Below are positions 10,765 through 34,700 of a DNA stretch of 64,000 nucleotides, piece after piece. The notes below the pieces were generated by a model, which ran no database searches, had not been told where the DNA came from, and worked only from the letters and a program-made list of their open reading frames with translations. Source of the DNA: Ophelia neglecta (taxonomy: Eukaryota). The stretch lies in assembly GCA_965285935.1 (NCBI GenBank), contig OZ260661.1, positions 98,022,001 to 98,086,000 of the forward strand, given 5' to 3'. The first letter of the stretch is position 1; each line of letters starts with the position of its first letter. The position numbers and the translations under genes are program-made.

Positions 10765-13700
10765 GTATTGTTTACCTCGGTTCGAAGCCGCGTGGAACCG
10801 TCAGCTGCAGGCCTACGAACAAAGCGCCCCAGCTCACCAACTGTAAATAAGGTTAAAAAATAAATTTGATAATACTTGCAAACGAACCTTGGTATTATCA
10901 AATCATGTTGATTTTTTCATGTGATGTTTATCATGCACGACTTGATACGTATGAACACCTGTTTTAGGATGAAAACCATGTTGAATACTTATGCATAGTT
11001 TCTGTTATTTTCTTTCAGAGCGGAGTCCGTTGGAGGAGACTGAGAAGTCATTAAACACGTTAGTCAAGCTAGCCAGCAATATAGAATGTATCCCGTCTCT
11101 CATGGAGGGCCTCGCCAACTGTATCAATGCAATAACAGCAGTCGTCTCAGAACAGACGGAAAATGTCACATTGGAAAAGCTTGTGTCCTCCTTACTTAAC
11201 CAGATAGTACAGGTGAGTTCAGTATGGCACCTATATATACCGTATCCACACAAACTGTCGGCATAGGCCTCAGTAGTATTATTCCGAGAACAGATACCTC
11301 AAACGGTATAAATAGTTATATCCGCATGTGTGTGTTACCATTTGTAGCATTAACTAAACTAATTTATTGTTTGGCAAAGATTTATCATCATTCATTCACG
11401 TCTAAGCCGGATTATTTATTTCACTCAAGAGAGGAGAAAAACAATTTGATTAGTATAAACTATTCATTGTTGCTTTGTAAGCTTCACCACTCTCCCGATG
11501 ATAAACCCAAATGTTTACTCCCTAAAAGACTCCCTACCACAATTTGGTCGAAGTGCGTCTGGACTCGAGTTCCACAAATTATTAGTCATGGCAAGACCAG
11601 CGTTCTGAGCAGAAGCAGACAGTTGTACTGGTCAGTATGTCTTGTCGCCATGGAGGTACACAATTAACCGAATAAACTTAAGGTCCCACTCTCAGATCTG
11701 TGCTCTTACCCTCCCTATTATCAACGTCTAAACGCAACGTTCACTACAACGCCGAGTTATGATCAAGGTCTTGTGTGTTTTAATATCCTTTATTCCTAAA
11801 TCAAGAAAAACAATAGAATGGCATCAGTTGACTTCATTGAGAACCGTGAAATGTGAATATAGCTTTAAAATCATAACACCATGACATAATTTACAAAACA
11901 ACGTGTGTTACTGTTTCAACATTTGAGCATCAGATGATTACGCATATCTACACCGTCAGTTTGAATATAAAAAGTATATACTTTTACAGTTTCCTGCACA
12001 GCCGATACAGATATTATTAGATCTGATCAAAGAGAGTGCCGGAACAACAGGGGCACCTGTTGTTGTGATAAATGACTGAGTGTGATGGTCTCTGACGTTA
12101 GCTTGAACAATGGCGAGAGGAAATGATGTCAGACTCCTGAGTATACAGGGCTTCCCTCCGATAATAGGTCCAGCAGAATCGTGCGTTTTGTAGCGTTATA
12201 TTAACCGATCTACCGCCCACCATCTCTTACTTGCGCTTGGTAATCATACTTGCAATGTGCCATTCATAAGGCAACAAGGGAAGAGATAATACAACATTTG
12301 TCACCAAAACTGACAATGAAAATAAATAATTAGCTTTGCGTCTGAGATTTAGCAACAATAGTCCTCCACGCTTTCGCCCTTTCATCCCTCGTTTTGATGA
12401 GCTGGATCGTCTGCTTGTGTGGTATAAACCGCCATTAAACGCTTGGTTTGGCGCAGGCTGATGCTCTTTCTCAAATGAGTACAGGTGACTAGGTATTGGG
12501 TATTTGTGCGCGCAAATTGGATGCTCTTATGCTCGTGTTTGGTGGTAAAGGTCAAGGGGTGAGGCTGGCTATAATAAGCCTGGCTTGAAAGACTGCGATA
12601 GCTGCTCACAGGCCTAGCAACGGCAGTGAACAAGCCATGCCCTCGAGTGCCCCATTCAGACAGGCAATGAGGCCAAGAGCTTCCTTTAACGATAAGCCAA
12701 TTTGGTATATTGCAATATTTGAATCAATCAATAAAGACAGGTAACACATTAATGTTTTCAGATACCGTCTTTATCTATAGGCCTCTGGTCTTCTCCTTGT
12801 GCGTATATAACTACGGTCTACAGGCCTACCGGCTGTTGGCCTGCCTTTGTTGAAGCAAAATATCCAAAACCACGGCAAACACTAATATGACACTGTTAAG
12901 AAAGACATTTCTATTATAATGGATGAAAATTTACAGGATTGCACTCCGACCAATTCATTAGTGAAATATCCAGGATAGGTTGCCTCGAAATGTATAATTA
13001 GCCACCGGAATCCCGGAGCCCTGGGGAAGGCATCATGATGGTACTAAAATATCACCAGCTTTCCCAGGGCCTTCGCCTTGCCGCCACAAGTATGGAAACT
13101 AACACCATAATATATCAAAACCTCCATACAAGATGTCTAGAAGACCTGTACGTTGACATTTGAGCCAAAGTCCCTCCTACCCGCTGATGTAATTATAGGT
13201 TATCAATAGCCATGTCTGCCTCAGCTTCCTCCATGGCATTAAGAGTTATTTCTTTTATTTGCAGACTTGCTGTGAAGAATTGGTAGGGGTTCCTGCAAAC
13301 AGAACACTGGTGCTTAAACAGTTGACCAAGCTTGTCCATATGTGCATGGACATGCTGAAAGGACAGCATAACCTTCACTTCAGTGCCCTTTGCACCATCA
13401 ACCGTATTGTAGATGTGTGCATCACTCACAGAGTGTATCATCTATGGAAACTTGAAAGCGAGTCTGCCACCATTGGCGGCCAGGCTTCAAATAAGGGTCA
13501 GTGGGCGACTCAGGCCCCACATGACCACCACAATGTACATATCAACTCCGGGGGGAGGACTGACATGAGCGAGCATCCTTCGTCCCATGTGCACGTGCAG
13601 CTGGAGAAGATCCTTCTGCAGGGCAGTCCCAAGGTGAAACAAAGTCCTAAACACAGGGCCTCGTGGCGGACTCGTCCTTTCACCCACCAGGACAGCCAGA

Positions 13701-16700
13701 GAAGCATCAAATCGGGATCTCACATTCCAGACGAGAGCTCTAGCTGGGAAACAAGCTTTATTGAAAAGGAGCTGAGCAGCGATGCAATAAACAGCATTGC
13801 GGCCAGTAGCAGCAGAGACAGTGGATACGAGAACACACCACTGGAAGTACTGAACAACGCTGATCCATCCAATATACTACATCTCCTACAAGACTCTATA
13901 GCCAAACACAAACAGCTAATGGGCGCAAGACATAAGTGTACTCCCAGTGTACGATTACGTAGCTGCTCGTACCATTGTGTACAAATACTCAGTGCCCGGA
14001 TGCTGACAATAATGGCGCATGGGCCTAGTGTACAACACAAAATAGTCAACGACGGTCATATGAAAATTCTCAACGAAGCCTTGGACCCTAATAATGACCC
14101 AGTGAGTTAAAAAATCCATCTGTAAATCGCTTTTTAGCATCATGATTACAAAACATCTGTATATGTTTCTAAGCTTCTGGACATAAACATAATTATACAT
14201 CATACTGTTTGCTTTAATCAGAACGAAAGTCGTTAGAAAGAACAATGTGGTACAATTAAAGATATTATATACTCAACCAATGCTTACTGGCCTAACATTG
14301 CATGTTAATTCATTCATCCATTAATAACTGAACGTACTAAAAAAAACTAAATCACGCATTTTAGATTTGAAAAAAATATCCCAGTTTATCCAATCCGATT
14401 TGTTACAGTTCGTTATGAATGGGTTATCATAATAGTTTTAGCAAAACATGTCATTGCTTCACTTGCAAATGGATGTACTGCAAAGCTTAAGGTTCTTTGT
14501 TAATTACTAACATTGTTAATTAATTCATCTTATAGCACTTGCTGTGTCTTCTCCTGCAAGCTCTTGCCTGTATTGCCATGAACCCTTGCTACCACCAAGC
14601 CTTGACCGAGGCAGACATTCCTGATACACTAATGCAACTTCTACTTCCGTCGGACGAATGGTATTACACCAATCACAGCACGAAATTCGCACGCTATGTC
14701 AAATATCATGCAGCCAGAATACTAGTTTACATGGGACTATTTCATCGGCTCGGCGGGCGGGTGGATCTATTTGACCTCAAAGGTGAGAATTGGTCCTGAT
14801 TGCATGAGACTTGAGGAGTATTGTTTTTCATATTCCATTCTTTTAATCGACATGCATGAGGAGATGCTCAATGATATGTGACTTATTAGTTTTGAACATA
14901 ACTTCCATAAACAGAAGTCTAAATAAAGCATGAGTTATCTTTGCGCAAAGATTGATCGATTTTTTCTTAGTCCTTCTTCTGCTAACAGATCCACGGCGGT
15001 AAATGTCAGCCAAATAAATCGTTTTAACCTTTCTTAGTGGGTTCTCCTTCTGCATTTTCTCTATGACTGGGCTCTTTGTTTTTGTCATGTGATTCTATTT
15101 TCTACCCGCCTCATGTCTTGCCTTTTTTGCAGCGTTCGATCACACCCAATACAAACCAAATCCACTGCTGCAGATGCATCATCCCGAAGATGCCTTTATA
15201 GAACAAATGGCTTTAGGAAAATTACAGGTTCAAGACTCTGATGGCAAGATCCAGGCAGGATCCCTCGAGGGCCTCATAGCTGAAATTATCAAGGTGAGAC
15301 CCGGTCAAGACAATTAAACCAGAAAAGCGTAGGCAACAGGAGCGTCCATCGGTCAACTGGTCAAGGAAAAGACAGATAAACGGCACTGACCTTTGTGTAG
15401 AATCTCAAACATTAAACAGACATGATCAGGTTTTATACTTATTTATAGCTGTTAACCATACACGTTATGATTCCCACTCCTAAAATACCAACATAACACA
15501 ATAACAGCCACAATAATATCCTTTAGTTTAGAACATACTAAAAAATATATTAAAAACGTTGCATCAGTTCAGAATGCCTAAGTTTGTGTTTAGTCCAAAC
15601 CCATTATTTATAATGTATGTACTTTATAAAGCACATAACACCTAAACAGGAAAGATTGCACGGCACTTTGTACGGTCTATTACTCTCATCCAAGGTCTGA
15701 TACACGTGTTAAGTTAAAGTTAAAGTTAAAGCGAGAATGGTTCACTTACATATTGAAAATTGTATTCCACCATCGAGGAGATATAATACCTTTTTCATAT
15801 TTAGAATACGAAGACCATAAAAGTCCATATTTTATTCTTTAATTTTTTTTTTGTATCGGGACACATCCACATCTCATTTATTAAGGAGCAGAGACTAGCC
15901 AGGGAACGGTCCATCTCTCGTCTGCTTAGCATTTTGACCCGTATCATTGACCCGTATCATTGACCCGTATCATTGACCCGTATCATTGGCAACTCCTTAT
16001 TGCATGTGATATAAGGTATAATTGTATTATTATCACTGCACTACACTACCTATGCACTATACAAACACGTGTAAGTGGATACCCTAAAGACAAAGTAAGG
16101 CATTAATCAATCATAGCACATTAAATTTGTCCGGAAGCCACAAGCCCCAATACACCAATCCCCCGCTCCCGAACAGTAAATAAACTTGAGATGCAATGAT
16201 AAAAAGAATTTATAAAACTTGCATTGAAATGTTAATAGATTTTCATGATGTGAGTCTGAGCACAAAAGAAACGAGTCAGTGGTCATCGTAGAATGGAGAT
16301 GACATCTGCCGAGAATAGGTGAGAGACTATGATGGTCTAAACTCTCAAAGTATAATAGAGACTTAAGATAAACTCATCTCAACAAACGCACGACCAAAGA
16401 TGGGTGTAACATAACGTTACTGGTTCATAAAGTGAAAAAAATATACAAGTTACGGAAGACTATAGCGCAATACTTTTCCCAATTTTCCGGAAGAACTTTT
16501 AAAGTTACGTAAGCAGAGCCTTGCAATCTATAATAATGCATGATTAGACCCTGCTATGAAAATTTTAAATGGCCTATTGTGCAACTTTGGTGGCTCGTGT
16601 ATAGTGTATTCTAGGTAGACGCAGATCAGAAGTTATAATTCTATTGGTTGCAAGGACGTATTATAGTTTGTGTGTCGATACTGCTGATTGAAGTTTGCGT

Positions 16701-19700
16701 GCCAGCATAAAAGGATCTTGATAATTTTGGACCGAACAGATGGAATTCTTGATCATTGATTTTTGCTTGTTTGTGGACTATATACTCCGTTGTTCAAATT
16801 CTCTAATCCCTTCTTCTGCTCCCTCAGGAAATATCAGTTCAATGTATATTTCCTCAGGGTTGAACATTTGTTTCATTGACATCAATGACAGGTGTCATGT
16901 GTTTACTGTTTACTGCAGATCATTATTGTTTCTGGGTGCTCAATTGTGAAAATCAGATTTGATGATTTGCTTACTAAAGAGTCCAATGAACATAAAAAGG
17001 AATTTATTTTGTTGAAATGAGGCAACTCGTCATTGACTCATCTACGAAGATTCATGTAACGAGCTTGTTGATTGGTTTTCATCTCTGAACAACAGATATG
17101 CGAAAGGCAGCTATCTAATTCCAAGTCAAACATGCAGATAATGAAAACAAATGTTAACCCGATACTGACAGTGTAGGCATACCTAAGTTTTATATCGTTC
17201 CCGGAAATAAAATGAAAATATAGACGTGCAATGGTCGCTCCCAGGCAACCATAACATCATTACACCAGGCAAGCTGGATTCCTGCAGACAGATTCTAAGG
17301 CCGTAGTTTTTGCCCAATTAATCGTGCAACATGCCGGAACAGATCTTGTTTGAACATTTGAATATTTCCTACGACAGGGACGAGTATATGAAATCCCAGG
17401 TGTAGGATCTGCAGTGATTGGCTTTTATCCGTTCATGTGGGACTATTTGTGTGTTTTTGTTAGTAGAAAAGCGACGAGCATTTATTCCTGGGGGCGAATT
17501 CTGGTTGTGGATTTTTTAACAGCTGCCAACCCTGAAATCGATACTTGGTGAGTGCACGATGCCAGTTGACAGGCTCAGAAATGTTGAACCGTTTAATGCT
17601 TTGACTTATGGTGTACATACCTGTAATAGGTGTGGCCACCGGCTATCGGTTCTCTTTGGTGAACAGACGCGGGGACACCGCACACCAAGAAACGATTGGA
17701 ATCAATGGCTGAGCCGTGGCTAGTTTATCAGGAGACCTAAATATTTATTGTAAACAAATAGCAATGCCGCCAGTTATGAGTACAAGGATGAACACGACTT
17801 GATGTAATCTGGAAGATAAAACACTGTGTAGTTGTAGCGTAAGGTATAGTTTATTAAAGAAGCCAGTCATGGCAAAAAATAGGCCTCGTAACATTTTGCG
17901 ATCAATGTACACGACAAATTACACTCATGAACGACTTCGCAAAACCAGAGATTAAAGTAAAAACATCCATTCGCATTATTAGCTTTCACTTGTCTTTAAC
18001 TTTAAAGGTAATGAAGCAACGAACTAATTGATTTTATGATTAATTAATAGTTAATATATAATAACACAAAATAAATTATTAAATTATTTAAGATATTATA
18101 ACAGAAGAATATAACTGCAGAGTTACGTGCGGTATATAAGTTTTTCGTTAAGCCCATGCTTCTATAGTATATGCTGGTTGATGTGGTTGTAGGCCGACTG
18201 GGATACACCTGTTTTCATCGAGCTCGAGTATAGATAAGGATTTGGATTGCATGAATCTGGAGAACTTGACCAAAATAATATTTCCTTGTTAATTTCAGTT
18301 ATTAATTGCCATCCATTCAGTCTTCTCGTTATGGTCTTTTCTGTTATATCAATATGTAGTTTGAACTTTGGCGCCGATTCGATCAATGACAGCCGCTGCA
18401 GTGTAGGCCAATCAGGGGCTCGTTTTAACAAACTTTGGATTTAAAAAAACAACTCATATATCCTATTAATCGTATACCATTTCCTAGGTAAAAACTTGTC
18501 ACATTCCACATTTAGGATTTTACAATATTAAAACACTATTCAGAATTCCAAATTCGCGGCCCTCCAAGTATAAGAACGACACTCAAAGGACTTTTCCCTC
18601 TTTCAAAACCATATACTGCCTGTTTCTGTGATGAGCAGTCTGCGATGCAGGAAACGGGCGTGGACATCCGGACGAAATAATAATCATGAACATTTTATTA
18701 AATAGATCGGATATCCCCCGGAAGCGTCAGTTGCAGGCCCGCGAACATCAATCAAAGGTTCCCAGACTATTAACAATCTTACTATGAAATCAGTAATCAA
18801 ACATTCAACTGAATATCACGTAAAAATGGGAAGTCAATGATGCTAGTCAGAGAAGTAAACACATGAATAGGACAAAGATGAAATATGAATTAATGGTTTT
18901 CTATGGTTGACCAAAAGTGGATGTATAAGGAGTTTCCATTCTAAAAAGTAGAGGGGTATTCTACCAAAAAGAAAAAAAAATTAAATCTGTCGAGTGATAC
19001 AGTCGCTATTTATTGTTATCGAGCACGTGCAACTGAAACATATCATATTGTATGAAGCAGACGTATGTCACCTCTATAGCTCTAGAATGGGTGGGTTAGG
19101 ACAGACACACCATTATTATAGGTCTATAGTATTCATTTAATAATATAGTGGTTAACACTGGTAACCACAGCCCACACAGGAACAGTTAAAATCCGGTGCC
19201 CGATTATATCTTGCTATCCTTAAGCCTGAAAGAAACATTTATAGGTTTCCATAAAGCCTCTAAACATGTTTAATGCTAGGATAAAATTTAAGTTGTCGGT
19301 TTATTTGGTAAACGTCTGTCTAAATTGTGACAATTCAGGTATCAGTCAGAATTTGATCGGGTATAGCACATCATTTAAAATGCCGTTTGTGGTTTAACAT
19401 GCCAACCTTGAAAGGATTTAAGTCTGGACGTCTTTTAATTAGCAGCGGAGTCTTGGTATATAATATACGTCTCAGAAACGTTGAACGACAAAAGCCATTT
19501 GACTTTTGTTTCATCTTATAATTATAATGTCCGTGAAGGCCTATAATAAAGAAAAAACATATATTGTATGCAAATTAAAAAAAGACCTTGATGTTTATTC
19601 TCATTCTTTTTCTTCTTTAAGGAGTTACTTTAGTGCGTGTAACAAATGAATAGCAACGTTCGCTCTATCAGCATATTATATTATTACAGTATGAGATCAA

Positions 19701-22700
19701 TGTTTCGACAATTTTCCTTTCTTAGGATGCCGAGCTTTCCATTAGTCCTGTGGTGAATGCTGCTCACCAGATGTTAGGACACACCAAGTCTAACAGCAGC
19801 AGTCACCAAGGCCTTCCGAGCAGCAGGCCAGGGGACCACTCGCTCCTCCGGCCGACCACCTCTCTGCCCTACGCTCATTCCCAATCAGCTCACTCCGCCA
19901 ACACCTCAGCCGACCACTACGAGGATTTCTCCACGTGCTCATTCAGGGAATACTTCTTTCATGCTGTGCCTCTAATCATTCATCCCATTATCATACTGCG
20001 AGTACTGTGCCACAAAATGTTCGGACACATGTTGCGGAGAAAGACGGCCACCTCGCCTCACAACCTAAGTCCTCCTGCGGTGGTCGACACCGAGACTTGC
20101 CCTGTTCGGATCCCGGCGTTGTCCGAGGTGGAGAAGCCACCGCCGGGTCACACGGAGACTCCTTCGTCAGCCGGCAGTTTACGGAGGAAGCGTACAAATC
20201 TCCACGTGCAAATTGCCATGCCTGACCGGGACGAGGAGGAGGAGGAGCTGAGAATGAGGCGGAGGCGGACGAGGAGAGCCGGCTCCATGGACAAACACCT
20301 CCTTCGTCTTGGGCAAACAGTCAAAAAGAACACGATGGCCGGCGGAAATATTGCGATGAGTCTGGCCATCAAAGCTATCGGCGACAGCCTCATGCAGCCT
20401 TTGGATTTAAACATATCCCCTCCGGTACAGGACGACCCCGACTCTAATGACCCAAAGAAACGTAACCATTTCAGATTTCCCACCCTGCGAAAACGCTCCA
20501 AGTCGCAAGGATACATCGCAGGTATAGGAACTAACGACTCGCTCGAGAGCGAGTTGAGTTCTAGTCATAAAAGTTCCTCTCACAGCATAGGTAAACCTGA
20601 GGAATCTGAGCTCAAAGACTTCGAAAAGGAATTAATCAATTTACCGGTGTTCGAAGTCGATACACATCGCATGGATCAGTGTACCTCGCCACTGCTGAGT
20701 CGATCAAATTCCGTTCCAGAGCAACTGGAACACATGTTGGTAGGAGTGCTTTCTCAGCATAAAGGATTAGGCGTTACCACGCCGGCTGCAACCAACCACC
20801 ACAACCACAAAAAACACCATGACCATCGCCAGAACGAGGGCAATGCAGACGTTCACATTAGTGTGACGTCAGCATGTGAAATTTCAGTTACTGCCAGCAA
20901 AGAGTGTCCTTTTCCTAGTGGAAATAGTAGTGAAAATCAGCGTACCGACTTCGGATCTCATACAAACCATGGCTTCTCGGACCAGCATGGCTCCAAAGGT
21001 GCTAATCACGACCACACACCCCCCACCCCCTCGGAAGGTCTCCCAGAGAAGGGGGCTGTGGCTAGGACGGCCGCTCACCATCTTATTCCTCCTAGCAGCC
21101 CCCCTTCCTGGCACCGAGAAACTGGAAGTGGTGTCCAACATTCGGATAGCAGTGGTGTTTTTCACAATGAGACCATCGTGTTTCATTTTGCAGCTGCAAC
21201 ACCCTGTGAAAGCCCGTCTTCCTATACCGAACAGATCACCCCACCCCCGTTTAATGACGACAGTGCAGTCAGTATAAAAAGCATGCCCACTTCTGTGTCT
21301 GGTTATTCCCTTAACCGCAATCAGAAGCCCCCTCCGCTTACTCCTATCGCCCTGGAATGCTCCCAAGACGGCGTGGCCCAGCGGCCTGGGAGCCTGCTCA
21401 CCCCTTTAAGCAATACTACCCAAGGCCAGATGTCTGTGGGTTCCAGCCAGAGCAGCTTGATGCTTTCTCCCTACTCAGGCAGTCAGAACATATCTCTTCT
21501 GGTTCCTAGTCCAGGACTCGATCTCCCCATCCACCACATGGGCGTGATGAAAGTGGTCGAAACCTGGGTCAGTATCTGTTGTGTGGACTTAGAGTGCAGT
21601 GCCAACATGAAGAAAGAAATGAAGGATTTCTTATACAAAATGGCATCCCTGGGCTCGGAGTACCGACGCTGGAGCAAAGGAATCAGAGAGAAGCTCAAAC
21701 TAGAGGTTAGTCTTCTTGTTTATAGTCTCTATTTTCATGATTGTTCTTTTTCCATCCACGCTAATTATTTCAATTATCGCTCAGTTTATTTTCATCTTTA
21801 GATATCCGATCTCCTCATTCTTTTTTGCAAATCTTTGCATGACCAATTCTTTCATTGAGTCCGTATTGTTTGCTGAACGTAATCTGCTTCCAGCCAGCGC
21901 CCATGCTAGTTTGAAATTGAGTCATGACCTAGGAGATTTGGCCTGCAGGCTGGTAATTTAGGTTTGAATTAGATATCACAAACCACGTGCAATGAAGTGA
22001 AAGCCATAAAACATCTATCTTTAAGGCATGCCGGCGTGCACACCGACCTTCCTGTACTTTGTATAATAATGGATAGGGAGTCAGCTATTAATTATATTCA
22101 ACAGTTTATGAGCAGCACAGACAAGCTACTCCTGCCCTGGTCGGAAGGCCTACCTGCGAACGCGCTTGTCGGCCTCTTATGACCACCGTTTGCTATTGGT
22201 TCGCACGATGGCGAACCAACTTGCCTACTAAAAGTTTTTTTTTTATCAATTACCATCTAGTAGATCCGTTCCAGAAAGCACGTACGCGTTGTGGGGACTC
22301 ACTGTCGTGCCTTTCATCGCAGGCGTACGAGACTAGGATATTCTAGAAATGAGAATCATCATTCGTAACACCATATACGCAAACACTGTGATATATCTAA
22401 TGGAGGTTCTGTTCTATGTACACTTAACGTGGTGAACGTGCCATCGTAGCCGATTAGTTGTCTCATGAATGCGTGTCCTCTCCATTGTATAAATATATAC
22501 ATATTTATATACCTTCTTGCTTATAGAAAATGTGATAAATCGACCAAATAATAATAATTCCGGTATTTCTAAGTCCTAAAAAAGTCCTAGATTATTTTGA
22601 GCTGATTTTTTCAGTAAAAGGCATACCCTTTTCTACCAATACCAAGCCGTGTGCAGAGTCGTGTATCAATGTGCGCTTCGTGCATGAGGCAGGTGTCTTA

Positions 22701-25700
22701 ATGTCAGACGTAAGATGTCACATAAATGGGTCGATGTGAACTTGTTTGTGTAATGAGCAGCTGGGGCAGGCTCTCTATAGCTCTTTGTATAGCATGAAGT
22801 TTAACAGCAGTTATGAGGAATAAGAAATCTTCAAATCAAAAGAAACAAGTGTCTTTGAAAAGCCATTGTCGAAGGCTTATAGTAATATATTTAACAGAAT
22901 TGGGTAATGTTTCTGCTTAGATATGAAGTGTGTGTGTACTGCCAGTTTCAATAACAGCAGTCAATAACTTTTATTTTATAAATTACTGACAAAATTACTG
23001 GTAAATTGTAGTAGGCATGCTTAAATCAGCTGGACTTTATTACTTTACAATGACACCTGCTCGTCCACTGACTTTTCCATTTTCTAAGCATTATACCACG
23101 CTTATCTATTGGCTCTTAAAGCTTATTTGACAAAATGGCAGAAGATTAAAAATGGTCCGTTGTTGGCAAAGCCACATTTAAAACAATTACTTGGCCGGAT
23201 TACCATAAGCCGACGGAACGTTTCTATATTTAAATTTTTTTAAGGGTAAATTGAGGTAACTTGACTTTAATGCTTTTATCAAATGTATTGACCACTAATA
23301 GGAAGTCAAATGTAAACAATATTGATAATTATGGAGACATTATCTGTAATGGTTTTAGACACCCCAAAAAAATTAATGTTTGGCCGTGGTATCTAAGAAA
23401 TCTGATCGTGACCTTCAACTTGGCCTTACTTTTAGGTCAGCATGTGCAAACAAAAATATATCCAATGTTTTGTCACGTGGCTCAATTAGAAGGAGGAAAA
23501 AAACACGAAATGAAATGAGGAACCAAAGAAAGAAGCACAAGATGATACGAAACTTTGACGTGTGGATATATATGAAAAATGTCGGCCTAAAAAAACCAAC
23601 GTTTAATTGATAATTTGTCTATATTTACTATACATAGCATCTAACGGGCAATAGATTGATCGATCATGTCCTTGGTCATCTGGTTCCTATTCATTTAGCT
23701 AGTAAATGGGCAGGCTGTCACAAGAATTTTTAAGAGAGTGAAACTGTATTCCGGGATATGAAAACACACGGGTGTTTGCGGTGTATTGACTAGCCTGTGA
23801 CTAACCTGCTTGTGACAAGCCTGTGACTATCCGGTGCTCGTTAATCCGAGCACTCCCTCCCCAGCCCTATTATGTCGGCGAGGAGCTTAACCATTTAGTA
23901 TTAAATTACCTAGATTGGTCAGGAGGGTGGCTTAACGAAAGCTAATGAAATTCTGACAGATCGCCTTGATCACTTTTATGTAAGCTGTGTTGGAAACAAG
24001 CAGAGTTAAGGAGATGATTCCATATTGGATAGTTTGAGCCACTTGATCTACATTCAGCCGTGTTAATTGGCCACACTGTTTCCCCTTCGTGTTGTGTCCA
24101 GTACTATAGCTGGGTAGTGGGGGGTGGGGTACGAGGGGGGGGGGGCAATGTCATCTGGAACCAGTACATATACCCTCCGCCCGAAAGGGTATCTTTTTCA
24201 GATCTTACAGTCTATAAGGTAGACCCTCCCCCCCCCCCCCTTTTTGATGGGTTGCTACAAGCTGTTCCATAATTTGTAGGCTTGCTATATAAAAACAAAT
24301 AATGAAAGAAAAATCTGCACATGTAATTTCTCTCATTAAAACCTACGCCAGCGGAGCTAAGGGGGTAACAATTCAGCTAAAAATGTATCAATTTTCGGCC
24401 ACACTAGTAAACATAGGTTGTTTCCCTTTTAAGTGATGGGCAACTTCGAGTGGAATTGCTATAGGAATGCCCCCCCCCCCATTTGAGTTTCCGGATGCAG
24501 ATTTCTGTCCTTAAACCTGGTCAGTGCCCCCCCCCCCTCCCCCCCCCGTTCCCTGGGAGGGGGGCAAGAGTGGGTCTCGGGTGTTTTCCATACGCACATC
24601 GCGTTTTGTTCACTAGTTGTCCAACCTCCGATCGAAGAAGATAACGACCCACTCCCTTATGTATTCATAAAGGTAGACCCACACTGACCAGGTTCTTGGC
24701 TAAACAAAGTTCAAGGGTCAGCGTACTCACATTGTTGGCCTCCATGTTGACTCACTCTATGCATATTCATTAAGAGACCATGAAGTATGTTGTTTTAATG
24801 CAGATATTTCAACCTTTCAGTAGTTTTTAGTATAGCTCCATGTCACTGGATCTTTTAGATCATATCAAATAACAGTTCATTGGTCAACTATGTACTTCGT
24901 ATTCCAGACATGTGTATGAAGTTGGAACTTTTTTTTGTCTTCGGTGTGAATGCTGTTTGTTTTACGTATATTATTAATTAGTAGAATTATTTATGTAATT
25001 TTTTACTTTTTCCCTTCTAGGAATCCAACGTGTGCAGAACCAACTCCGAGGTGGCTAGTGACTTAGAGAACATTCACGTGCAATATCGACTGGTAAGAAA
25101 TTTTACCTCGTATATCACTAAAATAAATGATTACTCATAAGAGGCCTGCTTATGTAATTAAAACTGGCATAAAACGTATGTGACGAGTCCTACTAGGCGC
25201 GTTAACTGAATATTAAAGAACTACCAGGTTATTAGTAATAATAACTCTTATTTATCATCTCCATCACACTCACGACAGAACGCACGGCCTATAGCCGAAC
25301 ATAGAGGCAGCGTGCCAGTGGTACACGTTTATAATATATCATCTGTCTCCTGATCTCTGTAAGCCCTACGACTATAATACTTTAATGGAATGGTAAATGG
25401 GTTTTTATTTTGTTCAGTATCAGAGATATGCTGACATCGTTTGAGGTTAGACTGAGAGTGTCGTCCTGAATAAGGCATATTCTGTTTGAACTTCTAATGT
25501 CTTTTTGTACTCCTAAAGCTGTTTATGGCGTTGAAAGTATTTATTGATTTTTCACATAAACACATATAGTATATATAAACAGATATTCTTTGTAAGCCTA
25601 TGTATGTTTATATATAGAGAGAATATTGTATAAGTTCATGTTGTGCATATTTAAATTGCGCCCACACAGTAGCGTAATGTTCTGCACAGAAAGTAGACCT

Positions 25701-28700
25701 TGAACCGTTGGAATTATTCCGCGCTCCGTGTACGTGAAGCTCCCCCTGTAGGCCTAATTATTTTCTCGTTTGACTCCAGCCAGTAAGAAGGCTTAGCCGT
25801 ATTGCACGCACGTTGTGATTAAGGCTTCTTGCTCGCCGAAATCATTAGACGCACGACACGACACAGTGCACTTTGTATTACAAATGGCATATTTGTACAT
25901 TATTCATTCATAACAATGAAATTCTGCGATTTAAGTCAATAACTATTTGCGTATGAAAACAATGCATACGATGACCACTATCATTGTTTAATAAACCTGT
26001 TTTAGCGTGTCGCCTCTTCATATCAGTCATTATGTAGGGGATATAGGGCGTGAATTATTTTGTTCATAATTATTGAGATATCTATTAGGTACATGCAGCA
26101 TCAAACTATTACTATATATTGTCGCGTCAAGGGAATGATACATGCAGCCTGGCGCTGTCGTGTAGGGATATCGGGCATGAAATACTGGCGCTCCTTTTCG
26201 CTTTCGGAGCATTATGTGGATTACTTGGCTATTCATTACATCGAATAATGCTACGTTACCAATACTTACCATTACGTGGAGTAGAAACACATCTGATAAT
26301 ATTATATTATTAATGGCAGCAACTATTGCGAATGGCAGTTAATGAATTAACATGGTGTCACAACTATCACAATAAAACGATATTAGATCTCACATATTTT
26401 TCGCAGCTGTGATCATCCTGTTATAGGGACACTAGTTGGTATAATATTCAACAGGTGAGGAAGGCTGCTATGTTATAACAGCGGATATGAGCACCAGCTT
26501 ATTGACTGTATTTAGACTTACATCCCTGGATTGTATAAAAAGTACCTTACATCCGAATATGTGAAATATAACGTTATATTAAACTTCCAATAATAAACAC
26601 CGGCTATAAGGGTTTGAAGGGGGGGGGGGTGTTAGATATATGACTATAAGCCTATCATTAACTTGACCTGGGATGTACTTCAAATGCATTATAATGTATC
26701 CATGGATACAGTATCATGATACAGATCATGTTACTGAAACGTTTAAACCGCGTCTTGATTCAAAATATGATATAGATGCCTCTTCTTCGATACACATTTC
26801 GGCCTATAACTGAATCACTCCTCCAAACGAACGCTGTTTATCGTCTGCCTATTATGAAATAAATGTTTTTAATAGAGCAATCGAGCATTAATATATTGCC
26901 TCAAGACCAATATTTTCCAAAGTCACCATAAAACACATTTAGACGGTGCCCTAATTGATGTGTGACAGAATACTAGTTAACATCAATACAATTTAACGGT
27001 ATAGTAAAAAGACGCAAAATTGTTCAGCCGCATTATTATTCTTTGGTCGTCTTTTTCCTGTGACCGCAACGTGGCGCTGCAAGTCGGGATTAACATAGCT
27101 GCGTTGAAAGTTCCGGGTTACGTGGACAGATATAATGGACTGGTCGATTTATTTTTATCTGCAGGGTATTAACTACTGTTTTTGTTTCAAATGGTGTGCC
27201 TCGTTACCGGATTCGTCGCTGGCCAATCATCTACTCTGCAGCTGCTAAACCGGCAACCAAACTTGTATGTGCGCAGTGCAGAATACATTTAGCGCGAACG
27301 ACACAGTTTGCCCATTTCAGAAACTAAATAATACTCGAGGAACCTACGGACATAAATTAGCGACCTACAGTGTACTCTTAGATCTTATGACAGAAATTGC
27401 ACCAATTACCCCTAACCTGCTCATCATGTAGGTATTTGACAATCAGGCAAATCTAAAGTAATTCGTTGATGCGCCTATACTCATAATACACAACAGTAGT
27501 TCAGGCTAAAGTTATTTTTTGATTTCAATAACGTTTCAGGCTATAGGTTGTACGCTAATAACATTCGTTATGGTGTCCTACAAGTACGTAAGTTGCGTAT
27601 CACTGAACTCGCCAGACGAGACTGGTCTTATTGTGGACGCCTCTTTACACGTTCGGCACTACTTTAGCCGCTGTAACGTGTCGAATTGGCCGTATCATCG
27701 GGATGCCGAAGGGATTTTAGCAGAAAACGACCCCTAACTGGTCAATCAAAGAGAACCTGGTAACCTACTCACACCAAAGGCGTGCAATAATACAATTGTA
27801 AATAGCTGGAAAACGTAAGAAGTCCCCACAAATGACATAAACTGAATAAACTAACAAGATACCACCGTAGGGCGAGGTCTAGGGCCGAGAAGTGTAAACA
27901 CTTGCCCAGCTTAATCTGCGCACACGTTTAAGGCAGGTGCGCCGCTTTCAAAAGGGGAACTTCTGGTAGTTTAAACAAATATCAGACGCGGAATATAATT
28001 GAATCTGGTTTAAAGCTTGACAGGTGTGTATCGTGCGATGGGACGAATTGAGACCTGTTTACGGTGGATAACGAAACCACCTGCTTTAAGGGACTTGCCC
28101 GAACGATAGACATAATCAAGCAGGAAGGCTAAAAGACACTGATACTTTATTAGTGGAAGTTGTATTCGGTAGCAGACTTCATCAGGCAGCAGAAGGTTAA
28201 TCTTGCCCACGTACCAGTACATAACTTTCAGACAACGTTACAAACCTGGCACAGTCATTGTTGTTTTCAGGCTAATAGTCAGACCAGCCTGCAACTGTTA
28301 CATGTAAACTACACGAGCAGATGTAATAATCTGACTGTTGGAGGATTTGTCGGTGATAACCGCCACTCACAAAGAAGGATATTACTTTTATTGCTAGTTT
28401 AGCGATAAGCGCAGACGACAGGTATAACAGGACAGTTTGTAGCGGCGTCACAGGCTCGAGGGTCGGCCGGTCAGATATTATGTTTACCCGCCTCCTCACA
28501 GTGTTTGATAGTCACACTAAATCCTCTTCGGCCGTCTGCTCCGGGCAGTAGAATGCGAGATATAATCACTCGTAGTGTACGTGAGGTGTTATCAGACGGA
28601 TAATGTGAGATGTTAATTGAAAAGGGTTTGGCTGTTTGGTCTACCACAGGCCGCATTAACCGAAACCTGTCATAAGAAGATGGCTCACCTCCATTGTTCC

Positions 28701-31700
28701 TTCAATTGCGAGCACTGACTTCAGGCTATTAACTTGTCCACGTCACAGAACGGAACCTAGTGCTCCGTGGGCCGAATATTTTTTGAAGGGAACATGGCAG
28801 TATCATATCTTTCAGGATAAAAATACGTAGTGGCTTGTTCTGAAATCTAGTTTGTTGTCGGCTCCGTGGAATGCTAATTTGTGTAGTTATATCGAAGTAT
28901 AGATAGATGAAACCAACCAAGAAACCCTAGCTGGAACAGTTTCACCAAGACCCAAGATCTGCTTGGTCTTATTCGCGCAGCGGAAAAGGAAATACGTAAT
29001 AGGCTTTCTGAACGTTTTTTGTGCGTGATCAATTTTATTAGACTTGGACGCGATTCATAGTCGATGCATTGCTTGTGCACGGCTGGCTTATGATTGTAGA
29101 AGTTCAACAGAAGACAGAAATGCGTTCCTGTACATGCTGTGCCACCTTATCTATCAGGATAATTCAGAAATGCCTTCTATTTGACAGAATATGTAAAAAC
29201 TTGGTTATTGACGATTGAGAAAGGAATGATTTTTACATGCATCGAGTATTTCATTCATGAAAGTTGCCACACTATGAAAAAACTTGACATATTCCACAGT
29301 TTTTTTTTATTTGTGAGGCTTAAATCTGAAGAAACATGTAACGATCAGCACTGGTAGCCCCTTCATCATCCGTCCACAGTCTCAGAAGTCCAGGGATAGT
29401 TGACAATGGCAGAGAAATTACAAACAAATGAGCTGAGTGGGAGCGGGTCAAAAGGCTCCTCGGCAGACGACTGCACGGCGTCCACAGCACTATCAGAGAG
29501 CACAGCTAGGGCAGACGAGCAGGTTAAGATTGATTTGCATTAATCTGGGGTTGTAGGAATATAAAAGCAAGAAATCCGCGCGGTTACACAAGCAATGAGC
29601 AGGTGATAAGAACAAGACTGTCGCTATGATGACCTCTTGTTCGCAGGCATTCATCTTCTTTGAAGTAGAGCCTGTGTCAGCGCTTTGTGCAGACAGTTGA
29701 ATGTCATTCATACTATTAAGGCTCCATGTTTATTTGGTGCACGCACACGGTAACCAGATTAGCAGTGTTTGAGATATGGAGCTATGTATGAAATACAAGA
29801 AGTAAACTTACTCGGATATCAATATGCTGGATTAGGCCACTTAGAACGTTTTAACAATTCATTCCTTCAAGATATATCTCTTCCACTACAGATAATATCT
29901 TGATCCCTAAAAATATAAGTTTCCCTTTCCCTCAAATAAATGTCTCTTACCTTCCAGAGAACTTTCTACTGTGGCTTGATTAGGCCACTGAGAATGTTTT
30001 TATGTCGTTCCCTCGATGTAGTTTCTCGTTCCCTGAAAATAGCTATCTCGTTCCTTCGTTTCCTCAAGATAATATCTCGTTTCTTCAAGATAACCGTATC
30101 GTTCCCTCAACACAAATATATTGTTCCCTCAAGATTACTGTCTCGTTCCCTCGCGGTAATAAGTATCTTGAGGAAAGGAGAACTTGACTCGAGCTAGGGA
30201 ACGATATTTTATCTTGATGGGCCAAGATAGCTATCTTTAAAGAACAAGATAATCATGATGTACGAACGAAAGGTTTATCTAGGGTGACCAGCTTGTTCCC
30301 TCGGGATAAATTTTTCTCTCCCTCAATATATAACTTTCTCTTTCCATAAACATAATATTTCGCTCCCTCAGGGTAACTCTCTCTGTCGCTCTAGATAATA
30401 TCTATCTGATTCTCATTAGATAATTATCTCGTTTTTGGCGTTATAAAAACGATCTCAGATGCTTAGTCCAGCCAGTATCGTGCGGTGTATGGTGGGTCTA
30501 GTACGTTTCCAGATAAAAAAGTTTTCTTCCATATTTATTTTCTATGTTTTTACACAATACAATGCCATACACTTGCATGACATACTAACCTTACCATTGG
30601 CCTGTAACATGCATTTAAATATCACATTGTCATCTCGGAGCAATGATTAGGATGGATACGTATGGGAGGAGTATGACGTTTTGGTGGTGTTTCGTTCATT
30701 GTAGGCCTGTAGCTAATGCAAATCTTACTCCAAGCATAAACATTGACGGCAATAATCTTCAGGGAATGATCTTTAATAATGTTCAATTAGCCACCTGATT
30801 ACGTCCCTTGCTTCCATATAAATCGCTCTAGGACATCTAGCCGCTGCACAGATTTACGTGTAGCTTCTACAATGATATCACCGATATAAAGGCTGTGCAA
30901 AGATTATTCAATTACACTATATTGTCCAATAGCGATACAAATATGTGTATATACGGAAAGTATAATTGTCAATTTAGACCTATTAATTCCAAATATTTTT
31001 AGTGGGATTGTACACGGAAAGGTTGACTAATTAGCAAATATTGATTTCGATCGAATATGCAGTAAAGAACTATCCGTAATTAACGAAAGAATGTAAGGTG
31101 GAATACGTGGAATGAAAGACGCGTTTAATAGCTTTTTCCAATCGTCTGTACCAACAAAGGCCAATGACCGAATACTTAATTGAGCTAATACTGTAAAGGA
31201 GCTCATGTTCGCGTCCAAGTAATCTCGCGCGTGCGCAGCCATGATTTCGATAAAACGCTAATAAATTTCATGCGTACTTAAAAAAAAGTCCAGTTAAAAG
31301 TGGCTAACGCGAATTAATGTAGGACCACGATATTAAATCGACGCGAGTGCGGATTTGTCAAAAGTCTGCTTACTGAATTTACGCGAACATTATCTCCACA
31401 AAATGATCTAAAAAAACACATAATTGTCTGTCTACATATTCAGGACTTTATTTCTCGACCCAGGCTACTAGATAATGTCCAACACTGCCAATGAGAAATC
31501 GGATCATGATATAATTCATATATCACTACCCTGGATGTCTATCTTATTCGGGGCGAAATTGACTGTAAACAGAAAATAAAGCCTGACACATCGGATAGAA
31601 TACGGTTTTTTTAGGATGATTTTGGAACTAAAGCCCTTTTATGAAATTATATCACGCAACAGAAGAGAATTTATAATAGAAAATTATACCGAAAGGACTG

Positions 31701-34700
31701 AGGGATATAGGTATTCGTTTAGAAAATAATCAAACAAATGTTTAAGTTGCGACTTACTACGTTCTGCTCCTTCCTCCATATCAAATACCGTGGTAATAGC
31801 ATGCCATATTATACAATTCACATTGTTAAGGCGTCGTGTTATATATAGCTAAGGGGGCAGAAATGTTGAAGCCAATTTGTGTTCCTTTTGGGTAAAAATT
31901 GGTGGAGATATAACATTTTATATTTAAACGTAGCTTGCAAGGCAATGCTGAGGTCATCAAATCAAGTTTGTCGGATGTCAGTCGTCGCGTCCGTCTACCC
32001 ACAATTCCTACTTTCGAAAAAAAAACATTTGTCGTACAACTTTAGCCTTACAAGTAAATGCATTAATAATGTTCTTCATTCGCATGTACATATAAAGGAT
32101 CAATGTCAGGTAACTTGTGTCGTAAACCAGTCACCGGTACATACATAATTAAAAAATCGTCTTCCCAAATCCGCTTGTATAAACCAATTGATTTTTGCAT
32201 CGGACTAAAAGTTGCAAGATAGACATGTTAAGTGTATTGACCACTGATAGGAAGTCAGATTTAAGGAATCAACTGGTGGGCGTCAAATTTCGCCCTTGAC
32301 CTCCTTTCTCAAGGTCATATTAAGAAAATCATGTCTTACGTTCACTAAACACGGCAAGATGGGCACGTAAAACGCCGTATGTTTTACATTTCCAGTCGAT
32401 TAAGAAGTGGCAATTTAAATATTTATCCGCTAATGAATAATAAAATTGGGAAAACAGTATGTGTTTAACAAACTTAAACACAATGTACTCAATTTGGCTG
32501 AAGAAAACTAATTAGAAATCTTTCATAATATTCTCAGTCTATATTAGAGAACAAAAAATGTAAAAAAAAACTCACATGGGAAGAAAAAAGTAGGGACTAA
32601 AAAGACTGGAAACAAATTTCATTTTTTCAGACAAATATCACATTTGCATGGACTCGTGAACTCCTATAATTGTTTGTTTAACGCGAAAGCAGGCGAATGT
32701 TTTTTAAATTATATTGGTGTTCAGGTAATTGTTTATTTATTATTGGTTTTGTCTGGCTTTCTTTTCCCATAGAAACTGCACTGGCCACCTTTCGATCTCA
32801 ACCGCTTTAATATTAAACATTGGCTGAATACAGGGCTACCTATCTTGAACAAACAAGTCCCCACTGCCAAGACAGCCTTAGTTATAGGAGAGGAATATGT
32901 GTATACAGTACAGCGAAAATAGTTGGTCTCAACTAGAGATAGTCGAACTCACACATAAAACATCCACTGATACAAGTCACATATGTTTTAGTCCATGCCT
33001 AGCGTGTAAGTGTGGGTCAGCGGATGAATACATAACGCACCCGCCCGGTCAAATTTAATAATCAGTTCTCGTCTGCTACACGTTTTATATATTACCAATT
33101 TTCTCGGTGTAGGCCTACTAGTTGTAACAACAACAGTAACGTTCACAAAAAATTTATTAAGAAAGCAATTATTTCCTAAAACCATGCTTAGTATAATATT
33201 TTTTTATTCCTAATCTTCTTTCATCCTTCTAGTTACAACGTGTTGTGGTTAGCGGTCGTCTGCCCGTATCCAAGGAGGAGGCGTCAACCTTGGCAGGTAT
33301 TCAGCTCCATCTGGAGGAGGCATGGCCGGAGGAGTTCCCAGACAATGGGCAGGAACCAGATGGCCAGGAACAGGACCAGCTCTTAAGGGTAACTACATGT
33401 ATTTACCACAAAACAAGGTTAAACTGGCTTTATGATAGATATAGACATGCCTAACTTACTAACCCCCAGCCAGACCCAGATAGACAAGTGATCCCTTCGG
33501 TCTTGTTAATGTTATTGAACGGTTTTGTTTTGAAGTATTTATAAGTGGGACTAGGTATGGAACATACCCGAATCTTATTTTGGTAATACGATAAACTATG
33601 TAGATAAAGAACGAATAACAATGACATATTAGATTACTAAACAATATTATGCGCAAACTCTATAAAATAGAATTCTATAGCGGCTGATCATATTCTTAAA
33701 GCACATGTTGTCTTCTTATTAAATACGTTGGCGATTGTATAGTATCATAACGATAACAGAACACACCTTATGTAAGATTAATAACCTACTGATTATTAAA
33801 TACCTTTTATCTGCAATGCACTATCAGCAAGAGATTTCACCAGTAGGAGTCAATTAAATAAAACGTACAATCATTGAATTATGTTGACACATCTCGGCTA
33901 AATAAGGTTTTCTTCGATCTTTCATCCCCGCGAAAGTTCTAGAATCATAGGGTACACCATGCAGTCAAAGTAGTCGTCTGCACTTTACAATCACGACATG
34001 TCGCTTCATGCCGACTGGTACTAAAACAGTGCAGATCGGGTCTCCCGTTGTGTCTTTGGCCTATTTTCTTTCTTCCCCGAAGAACTAATCATTGCCCTCC
34101 CATTATTTTACTCTCTTGAATGAATTATGTGCTCACGGGCCTCCTATAATGAAAGATACGGGATAACGTACAGTCTATGGATTTTAACTACCAATGTGAG
34201 AACGTGCATCGGTAAATGGAGGAATGGTAACTACAGTGAAACCTGTGAATTGGGACCACCCAATGAACTGATAAAAAAAAAACTTGTCTGATTATAGCGG
34301 TTGTCTGTTAAAACAGGTTATTTCATATTGAAATTATACATTGCGGCCTTCATATTTGTGGTCGTAATTGCTTGGTGGTCTTAATATAGAGGTGGTCTTT
34401 AAGGCTGGTTTCATTGTATACCAATAGGATGTCTTATGTCTTTGACCATACCTTGTCAGTAGGACTGGCAAAATGCTTGTGCCAGGAATGGGTCGTTTAT
34501 TTATTGAAATACACCCAAATAATTGCCATCTTTATAAATGGTAAAAAGCAGACATCACCTCTAATTTATATGCATACCTGGGATAATCTAATTCACTTTG
34601 CCCTAAGTGCCAATTTTCATTGTGGAACATTTATCAACACGTAATTTAATGCCAAGTGATTATTATTGTTTCCTTCTGGTGTGAAAATTATACACTATAT

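What the first reader, a model, noticed from the sequence alone, without database searches (positions are those of the whole stretch)
15133..21705. REM (RasGEF N-terminal) domain split into three pieces by disordered inserts
Seen: three short ordered blocks in the expected REM order: [41 protein letters not shown] and [34 protein letters not shown]. They are separated by about 70 and about 490 aa of Ser/Pro/His-rich sequence. Knowledge: these resemble the REM consensus blocks (IKxGTLEKLV; FxxxFLxTYxxFxxPxxLLxxL; RVLNVLxxWVxxxxxDF) of SOS/Epac/RasGRP-type GEFs, whereas vertebrate PLCE1 is usually drawn with CDC25 and no REM. Inference: an ancestral REM-CDC25 GEF that a plain domain scan could miss, with the FERM inserted between the two halves.
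Basis: partly seen in the sequence, partly recalled or inferred. Interest (0 to 1): 0.7.

Follow-up and report, generated by a model that had tools for sequence, protein, structure and literature searches.

The report
Hidden split REM domain in PLC-epsilon
In an invertebrate phospholipase C-epsilon gene, three short conserved blocks set far apart by long low-complexity inserts are predicted to fold into the REM helper domain of Ras-activating enzymes, a part that the Pfam scan misses here and that the vertebrate enzyme is described without.

Summary
Confirmed. The window holds most of an invertebrate PLC-epsilon gene (ARM, FERM lobes, CDC25, PLC core, two RA; ankyrin exon 44 kb upstream). The three blocks lie at 15249-15290, 19942-20022 and 21541-21642, with inserts of 73 and 506 aa. 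Pfam finds no REM. With a REM model built from non-PLC GEFs, an unguided free-gap search picks exactly these blocks (36.5 bits; 0 of 2000 shuffles, 0 of 154 real decoys). Profile-profile comparison gives 96.6%, E 7e-10, and wrong block orders score lower. AlphaFold2 of the Capitella orthologue co-folds the blocks; the top 7 of 48,161 PDB chains are all REM domains (Z 8.3-10.4; best non-REM 8.2). A spider-orthologue model places REM on CDC25 across the FERM. Corrections: a fourth conserved helix lies in the long insert; the FERM has only F2-F3; block 2 alone has lost the REM motif; 'ancestral' is untested. RasGRF has a similar long insert at the same site, so this is a new variant of a known kind, conserved across protostomes and not found in ten literature searches.

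The parts
11015..14782 (+). ARM-repeat exons (about 11015-11212, 13259-14101, 14536-14782) upstream of the REM; the ankyrin exon lies about 44-45 kb before the window (G000:C1:97976994-97978500)
   Evidence: tblastn; Pfam ARM_ARMC5 weak on P0001; model residues 1-254 match armadillo proteins at Z about 14
15177..15248 (+). Conserved helix and predicted beta-hairpin before block 1; aligns to the start of the SOS REM
   Evidence: conservation; Capitella model H30-38, E44-46, E52-55; model 38-43 aligns to SOS1 577-585
15249..15290 (+). REM block 1 (first REM helix), end of exon 15133-15293
   Evidence: PSSM 10.2 bits; pLDDT 85-93 in orthologue model
15291..19941 (+). Insert 1: 73 aa (codon before intron 15294-19725, then 19726-19941), predicted disordered
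   Evidence: 3-25% identity to eight orthologues; pLDDT under 50 in orthologue model
19942..20049 (+). REM block 2 (helices 2 and 3); the canonical TYRxF motif is lost, the spacing and the Pro are kept
   Evidence: pLDDT 84-94
20023..21540 (+). Insert 2: 506 aa, predicted disordered, carrying short conserved motifs
20599..20655 (+). Fourth conserved block (amphipathic helix) inside insert 2; aligns with the SOS helix that precedes block 3; role uncertain
   Evidence: pLDDT 66-81 and 57-65 in the two models
20701..20721 (+). RSxSxP motif in insert 2, resembling a 14-3-3 mode I site (label recalled)
   Evidence: R[SAC]x[ST]xP match in 26 of 41 sequences; no chance control run
21541..21705 (+). 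REM block 3 plus the two following helices; carries most of the sequence signal
   Evidence: 24.2 bits alone; hhalign 93% alone; pLDDT 92-95
25021..39240 (+). Linker exon 25021-25092 and FERM F2-F3 lobes (exons 33233-33388, 35931-36161, 36472-36621, 38955-39240); no F1 lobe between REM and F2
   Evidence: Pfam FERM_M and IRS weak on exons, FERM_M E 3e-11 on P0003; F3 matches at Z about 13
39507..41219 (+). CDC25 (RasGEF) domain: exons 39507-39927, 40333-40582, 41070 onward
   Evidence: Pfam RasGEF E 9e-14; SOS hits; alignment
41480..54800 (+). PLC-epsilon core: PH, EF hands, X, Y, C2, RA1, RA2 exons
   Evidence: tblastn with orthologues P0007 and P0002; domain labels from Pfam on orthologues; PH label by position (recalled architecture)

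Best explanation
The three blocks are parts of one REM (RasGEF N-terminal) domain of an invertebrate PLC-epsilon; they are predicted to fold together with the two low-complexity inserts looped out, and the folded REM likely docks on the CDC25 domain across an inserted FERM F2-F3 module, where it would brace the helical hairpin that ejects GDP from a Ras-family GTPase (likely Rap1, by analogy with mammals). Shown: sequence, spacing, conservation, REM similarity of the joined blocks. Predicted: co-folding and docking (AlphaFold2 on two orthologues). Inferred: bracing role, substrate, a regulatory role of the inserts (phospho-sites, docking helix), and loss of the ANK-ARM-REM-FERM part in vertebrates.
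For: Free-gap chain picks these blocks unguided, 36.5 bits, 0 of 2000 shuffles, 0 of 154 decoys; all three land on the homologous blocks in 16 of 41 sequences. HMM from 16 non-PLC REMs: joined blocks 25.8 bits best domain, 32.9 with the fourth block; 0 of 2000 shuffles (max 5.5); decoy triplets from outside the REM region max 8.3. hhalign 96.6%, E 7e-10, score 58 over 112 columns; three wrong orders 37-43; 100 column shuffles max 21; 23 other windows of the orthologue alignment at most 17.4. Capitella model: blocks pLDDT 84-95, inserts under 50; top 7 of 48,161 chains are REMs of RasGRP2 (Z 10.4, rmsd 2.9, 116 aligned), SOS1, RasGRP1, Epac2, Rlf, spanning model 39-728; the top 16 Foldseek rows are SOS although the model holds no CDC25. 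Spider model: REM-CDC25 structures superpose over 307-348 residues at rmsd 4.8-7.4, against 199 for CDC25-only chains. Position directly N-terminal to a CDC25 domain. REM buttressing the hairpin is established for SOS and RasGRP1 (PMC3728621, passages).
Against: Pfam RasGEF_N is not reached by any window exon or orthologue. Block 3 carries most of the signal: block 2 alone scores -2.0 bits, block 1 3.7, and one wrong order scored 29.3 against 28.9 as full-sequence score. Nematode and spider joined blocks score about 0 bits; only 14 of 41 reach 15 bits; 25 of 41 miss at least one block in the chain test. Structural Z values (8-10) lie in the range the tool warns can be a common helical arrangement; best non-REM Z 8.2; Foldseek E values are 2 or worse. 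VIA ranges give only first and last residue, so the REM-CDC25 docking is read from aligned counts; rmsd 5-7 A is loose. AlphaFold2 has seen REM-CDC25 structures. The REM model is small and SOS-weighted. Neither model is of this window's own spliced protein.
Confidence: 0.86

Rival explanations
1. The blocks are a REM-derived domain that folds but no longer serves the GEF: it packs on the ARM or FERM part, or is a scaffold relic, and the CDC25 domain works alone as in vertebrate PLC-epsilon.
For: Block 2 has lost the canonical motif and nematode copies have drifted to about 0 bits; the vertebrate enzyme is described with CDC25 only (PMC13022664, PMC12501065, passages); isolated CDC25 of RasGRF can work without REM (PMC12227644, passages); the hairpin here carries a 30-aa insert and the Phe of the SOS LINF motif is Met or Leu.
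Against: The spider model puts REM and CDC25 in the arrangement of solved REM-CDC25 pairs; blocks stay conserved from molluscs to insects and rotifers.
Confidence: 0.1
2. The blocks are unrelated amphipathic helices (for example further ARM/VHS-like repeats or binding motifs) and the REM likeness is chance plus selection of blocks.
For: VHS/ENTH, HEAT and other helical folds follow closely at Z 8.2-6.3; the region follows an ARM repeat; Pfam gives nothing.
Against: The selection-aware test, order-dependent profile scores and the seven top structural hits all being REMs from five GEF families agree; a CDC25 lies downstream.
Confidence: 0.04

Closest known systems
RasGRF1/2 REM-CDC25
   Same: REM broken between blocks 2 and 3 by a long Ser/Pro-rich insert: block 2 Pro to block 3 Trp is 260-539 aa in 8 mollusc RasGRFs, 527 aa here, 39-59 aa in SOS, RGL, PDZ-GEF.
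   Different: RasGRF keeps block 1-2 spacing (30 aa; 95 here), keeps the TYR motif so Pfam finds it, and has no domain between REM and CDC25. The inserts show no sequence similarity (0 of 9 with E under 0.2), so they likely arose separately.
Epac2 and PDZ-GEF (REM separated from CDC25 by inserted domains)
   Same: A folded module lies between REM and CDC25 in sequence (RA in Epac, PMC7084553 passages name the domains, order recalled; PDZ and RA in P0028) and REM still docks on CDC25.
   Different: Here the inserted module is FERM F2-F3, and the REM itself is split twice.
SOS1/RasGRP REM-CDC25
   Same: Best structural matches of the co-folded blocks; the N-terminal hairpin and the fourth block resemble SOS elements.
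   Different: Compact REM; the SOS allosteric Ras-GTP site was not tested here.
Vertebrate PLCE1
   Same: CDC25-PH-EF-X-Y-C2-RA1-RA2 order.
   Different: Described with no REM (word absent from PMC13022664 and PMC12501065) and about 500 N-terminal residues without predicted structure; no ANK, ARM or FERM is mentioned in the passages seen.

Membership tests
REM / RasGEF_N (PF00618) | Pfam gathering score on the natural, unjoined protein | tested here: not met
   No hit on window exons or orthologues (one E 6.9 match outside the blocks in P0019); none in the window in the own-genome search; 0 of 25 precomputed. Expected for a split domain; Pfam was not run on joined blocks.
REM / RasGEF_N (PF00618) | Profile similarity of the insert-free sequence to known REMs, in order | tested here: met
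   (own model from 16 non-PLC REMs)
REM / RasGEF_N (PF00618) | REM helical fold | tested here: met
   Predicted model of Capitella orthologue; top 7 of 48,161 are REMs, Z 8.3-10.4, rmsd 2.9-4.2, 116-132 aligned; margin over non-REM is small
REM / RasGEF_N (PF00618) | Canonical block 2 motif FLxTYRxF | tested here: not met
   Window block 2 scores -2.0 bits by HMM, 3.7 by PSSM; several insect copies reach about 20 bits
REM / RasGEF_N (PF00618) | Lies N-terminal to, and packs on, a CDC25 domain | tested here: met
   Order shown; packing predicted only, from joint superposition of the spider model
REM / RasGEF_N (PF00618) | Supports nucleotide exchange by bracing the helical hairpin | not testable with these tools
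   needs biochemistry
PLC-epsilon | CDC25 + PLC X/Y + C2 + two RA domains in one gene | tested here: met
Complete three-lobed FERM domain | Ubiquitin-like F1 lobe before F2 | tested here: not met
   Only about 25 aa separate the last REM helix from F2; no strands there in the model; F2 (Pfam FERM_M) and F3 (Z about 13) are present
SOS-type allosteric REM | Ras-GTP binding site on REM | not tested
   no residue-level or complex test was made

The most novel reading that the evidence does not exclude
Protostome PLC-epsilon is a REM-gated GEF: the 500-aa insert is a phospho-switch whose conserved helix docks back to complete the REM and whose RSxSxP site recruits 14-3-3, so kinases tune the CDC25 hairpin; the F1-less FERM ties the module to a membrane receptor tail. 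Vertebrates lost this whole regulatory arm, which would explain why their CDC25 domain has not been purified alone.
Probability: 0.15. Interest if true: 0.72.

Novelty: new variant of a known kind. Interest (0 to 1): 0.5.

Why it matters
PLC-epsilon is treated as a CDC25 GEF without a REM, and a 2026 review lists the structure and Rap1 specificity of its GEF domain as open (PMC13022664); the domain has not been purified (PMC12501065). A REM in annelids, molluscs, arthropods, rotifers and (degenerate) nematodes changes the domain map of the invertebrate enzyme, suggests vertebrates lost an ANK-ARM-REM-FERM arm, and offers a practical construct: a natural short-insert orthologue (spider, P0240) for structure and GEF assays. 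It also shows how a doubly split domain escapes profile scans. The impact is limited by the RasGRF precedent and by the lack of functional data.

Tried and rejected
Pfam scans of exons, single blocks and 18 orthologue proteins: no REM. phmmer of block 3 against PDB sequences: 3 unrelated weak rows. ESM Atlas on P0001 720-1425: best scores 0.75-0.76, one RasGEF_N cluster (28% of members) at rank 4; below the 0.9 level, a lead only. Sequencing runs: no RNA holder listed; no reads were laid. Complex prediction for REM versus CDC25 with controls was not available, so there is no controlled binding test. First decoy-triplet null (max 22.1) drew on proteins that include the REM region and was redone without it (max 8.3; 4463 of 5000 decoys reported). 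Homology of the insert to RasGRF inserts: rejected. The fourth block alone has no hhalign signal (0.18%) and adds only 1.1 score units, so its place in the REM core is unproven. Earlier scan findings: none.
Full report
Gene. The window is a + strand, intron-rich gene (G000:C1:98022001-98086000). tblastn with long orthologues maps ARM exons (11015-14782), the region in question, FERM lobes (33233-39240), CDC25 (39507-41219) and the PLC core with two RA domains to about 54800. An ankyrin-region exon lies 44-45 kb upstream of the window. The closest named relative is a Capitella fragment, P0001. All 25 long relatives found (molluscs, a nemertean, insects, rotifers, nematodes, one unnamed) carry RasGEF and PLC domains, 22 of 25 FERM_M, 15 of 25 ankyrin families, 0 of 25 RasGEF_N. 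It is a PLC-epsilon.

Observation. Exons 14536-14782, 15133-15293, 19726-21705, 25021-25092 and 33233-33388 have AG/GT borders and join in frame. The blocks lie at 15249-15290, 19942-20022 and 21541-21642, with inserts of 73 and 506 aa. Conservation over 41 sequences, scored without reference to REM, picks out the three blocks, and also a helix before block 1, a fourth helix at 20599-20655, the helices after block 3 and two weaker short motifs. Identity to Capitella is 71, 85 and 59% in the blocks and 25-52% in the inserts; to a mollusc (P0003) 71, 56, 53% against 12-21%.

Sequence tests. Pfam finds no REM in exons, single blocks or orthologues, and PF00618 over the own genome gives 12 matches, none in the window. 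I built a REM model from 16 non-PLC sequences (own-genome exons and hits; SOS-weighted; family labels of own-genome exons are by resemblance, recalled). Joined blocks score 25.8 bits as one domain, 32.9 with the fourth block; 0 of 2000 shuffles reach it; decoy triplets from outside the region reach 8.3. Against this, block 3 alone gives 24.2 bits, block 2 alone -2.0, and one wrong order scored 29.3 against 28.9 in the full-sequence score (best single domain 21.7-23.4 for wrong orders). Profile-profile comparison shows the blocks add up: 15.6, 17.7 and 38.1 alone, 58.4 in order (96.6%, E 7e-10), 37-43 in three wrong orders, at most 21 in 100 column shuffles. In 16 of 41 sequences all three land on the homologous blocks; molluscs keep blocks 1 and 3 best, insects block 2, nematodes and the spider score near zero.

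Structure. AlphaFold2 on a 728-aa part of P0001 (54 sequences; no CDC25 included) gives pLDDT 84-95 for the blocks, 66-81 for the fourth helix and under 50 for most of the inserts. Against 48,161 PDB representatives the top seven are REM domains: RasGRP2 (Z 10.4, rmsd 2.9, 116 aligned), SOS1 (10.2 and 9.9), RasGRP1 9.2, Epac2 8.8 and 8.7, Rlf 8.3; yeast Cdc25 REM is rank 12; the best non-REM is 8.2. The matches span model residues 39-728, so they need all blocks together. The margin is small and Foldseek E values are not significant, though its top 16 rows are SOS. A spider orthologue, P0240 (Parasteatoda), has short inserts (35 and 139 aa between anchors; canonical 30 and 39-59). Its ARM-to-CDC25 model (mean pLDDT 75, pTM 0.72) superposes on REM-CDC25 structures over 307-348 residues at rmsd 4.8-7.4, starting at the REM of each chain, against 199 residues for CDC25-only chains. 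I read this as predicted docking of REM on CDC25 across the FERM; only end points of the ranges are shown, and AlphaFold2 knows such pairs.

FERM. Only about 25 aa separate the last REM helix from FERM F2; no F1 lobe fits, and the model shows none. F3 matches FERM/PH folds at Z about 13; F2 is low-confidence in the model (pLDDT 37-62) but passes Pfam in orthologues.

Mechanism. In SOS and RasGRP1 the REM buttresses the CDC25 helical hairpin that removes the nucleotide (PMC3728621, passages; PMC6767298, passages). The simplest reading is the same role here, with inserts looped out. The substrate is inferred from mammals, where the CDC25 is specific for Rap1A (PMC13022664, passages). A regulatory role of the insert is inferred from the conserved fourth helix and an RSxSxP-like motif (26 of 41, absent in rotifers and nematodes apart from one acanthocephalan relative; no chance control).

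Known and new. Mollusc RasGRFs carry 238-517 aa Ser/Pro-rich inserts at the same block 2/3 site, unrelated in sequence, so a split REM is not new as such. New here: a REM in PLC-epsilon, split twice, with FERM F2-F3 between it and CDC25, across protostomes. The word REM does not occur in the 2026 review or the 2025 cryo-EM paper (PMC13022664, PMC12501065; passages by word search), which report no predicted structure in the first 500 residues of the rat enzyme. Ten searches found no description of this REM or architecture; the library lacks most subscription papers. Also seen as passages only: PMC7084553, PMC12227644, PMC3141262 (notes domain rearrangements in the Monosiga orthologue), PMC2274882, PMC12475976. 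No supplements were read; those of PMC3141262 and PMC2274882 show domain maps and may bear on novelty. PROSITE, SMART, CDD and AlphaFold DB could not be checked and may already flag part of the domain.

Ancestry. Every named carrier is a protostome; many hits are unnamed. Loss in vertebrates is the parsimonious reading because REM usually accompanies CDC25, but it was not tested.

Verdict. Observation confirmed, interpretation supported with corrections. New variant of a known kind; interest 0.5.

Noticed in passing
window 20599-20655: Fourth conserved helix inside the long insert, found in molluscs, annelids, arthropods, rotifers and nematodes; resembles the SOS helix that precedes block 3.
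   Followed up: partly
window 20701-20721: RSxSxP motif resembling a 14-3-3 site, matched in 26 of 41 sequences.
   Followed up: partly
window 25021-39240: FERM has F2 and F3 only, and F2 itself is interrupted by a roughly 100-aa variable insert; whether one of the ubiquitin-like RA domains stands in for F1 is untested.
   Followed up: partly
window 40560-41130: The CDC25 helical hairpin has a conserved 30-aa insert in invertebrate PLC-epsilon, predicted partly beta, at the turn that lies near REM in other GEFs.
   Followed up: no
G000:C1:97976994-97978500 (L018): Large ankyrin-region exon 44-45 kb upstream of the window; 10 of 25 long relatives have no ankyrin family, which may reflect shorter isoforms or partial models.
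   Followed up: partly
window 51580-52551: A 324-aa open frame between C2 and RA1 without a match in the two orthologues used for tblastn; possibly a lineage-specific or alternative exon.
   Followed up: no
L004 and L011 (G000:C8:21940427-21950684): The own genome's RasGRF-like REM is also in two pieces 10 kb apart, matching the known long insert.
   Followed up: partly
window 15930-15985: Short tandem repeat of a 14-bp unit, about four copies, in the intron after block 1 (seen).
   Followed up: no
P0226: The Pomphorhynchus PLC-epsilon model ends in a catalase domain, probably two genes merged by annotation.
   Followed up: no
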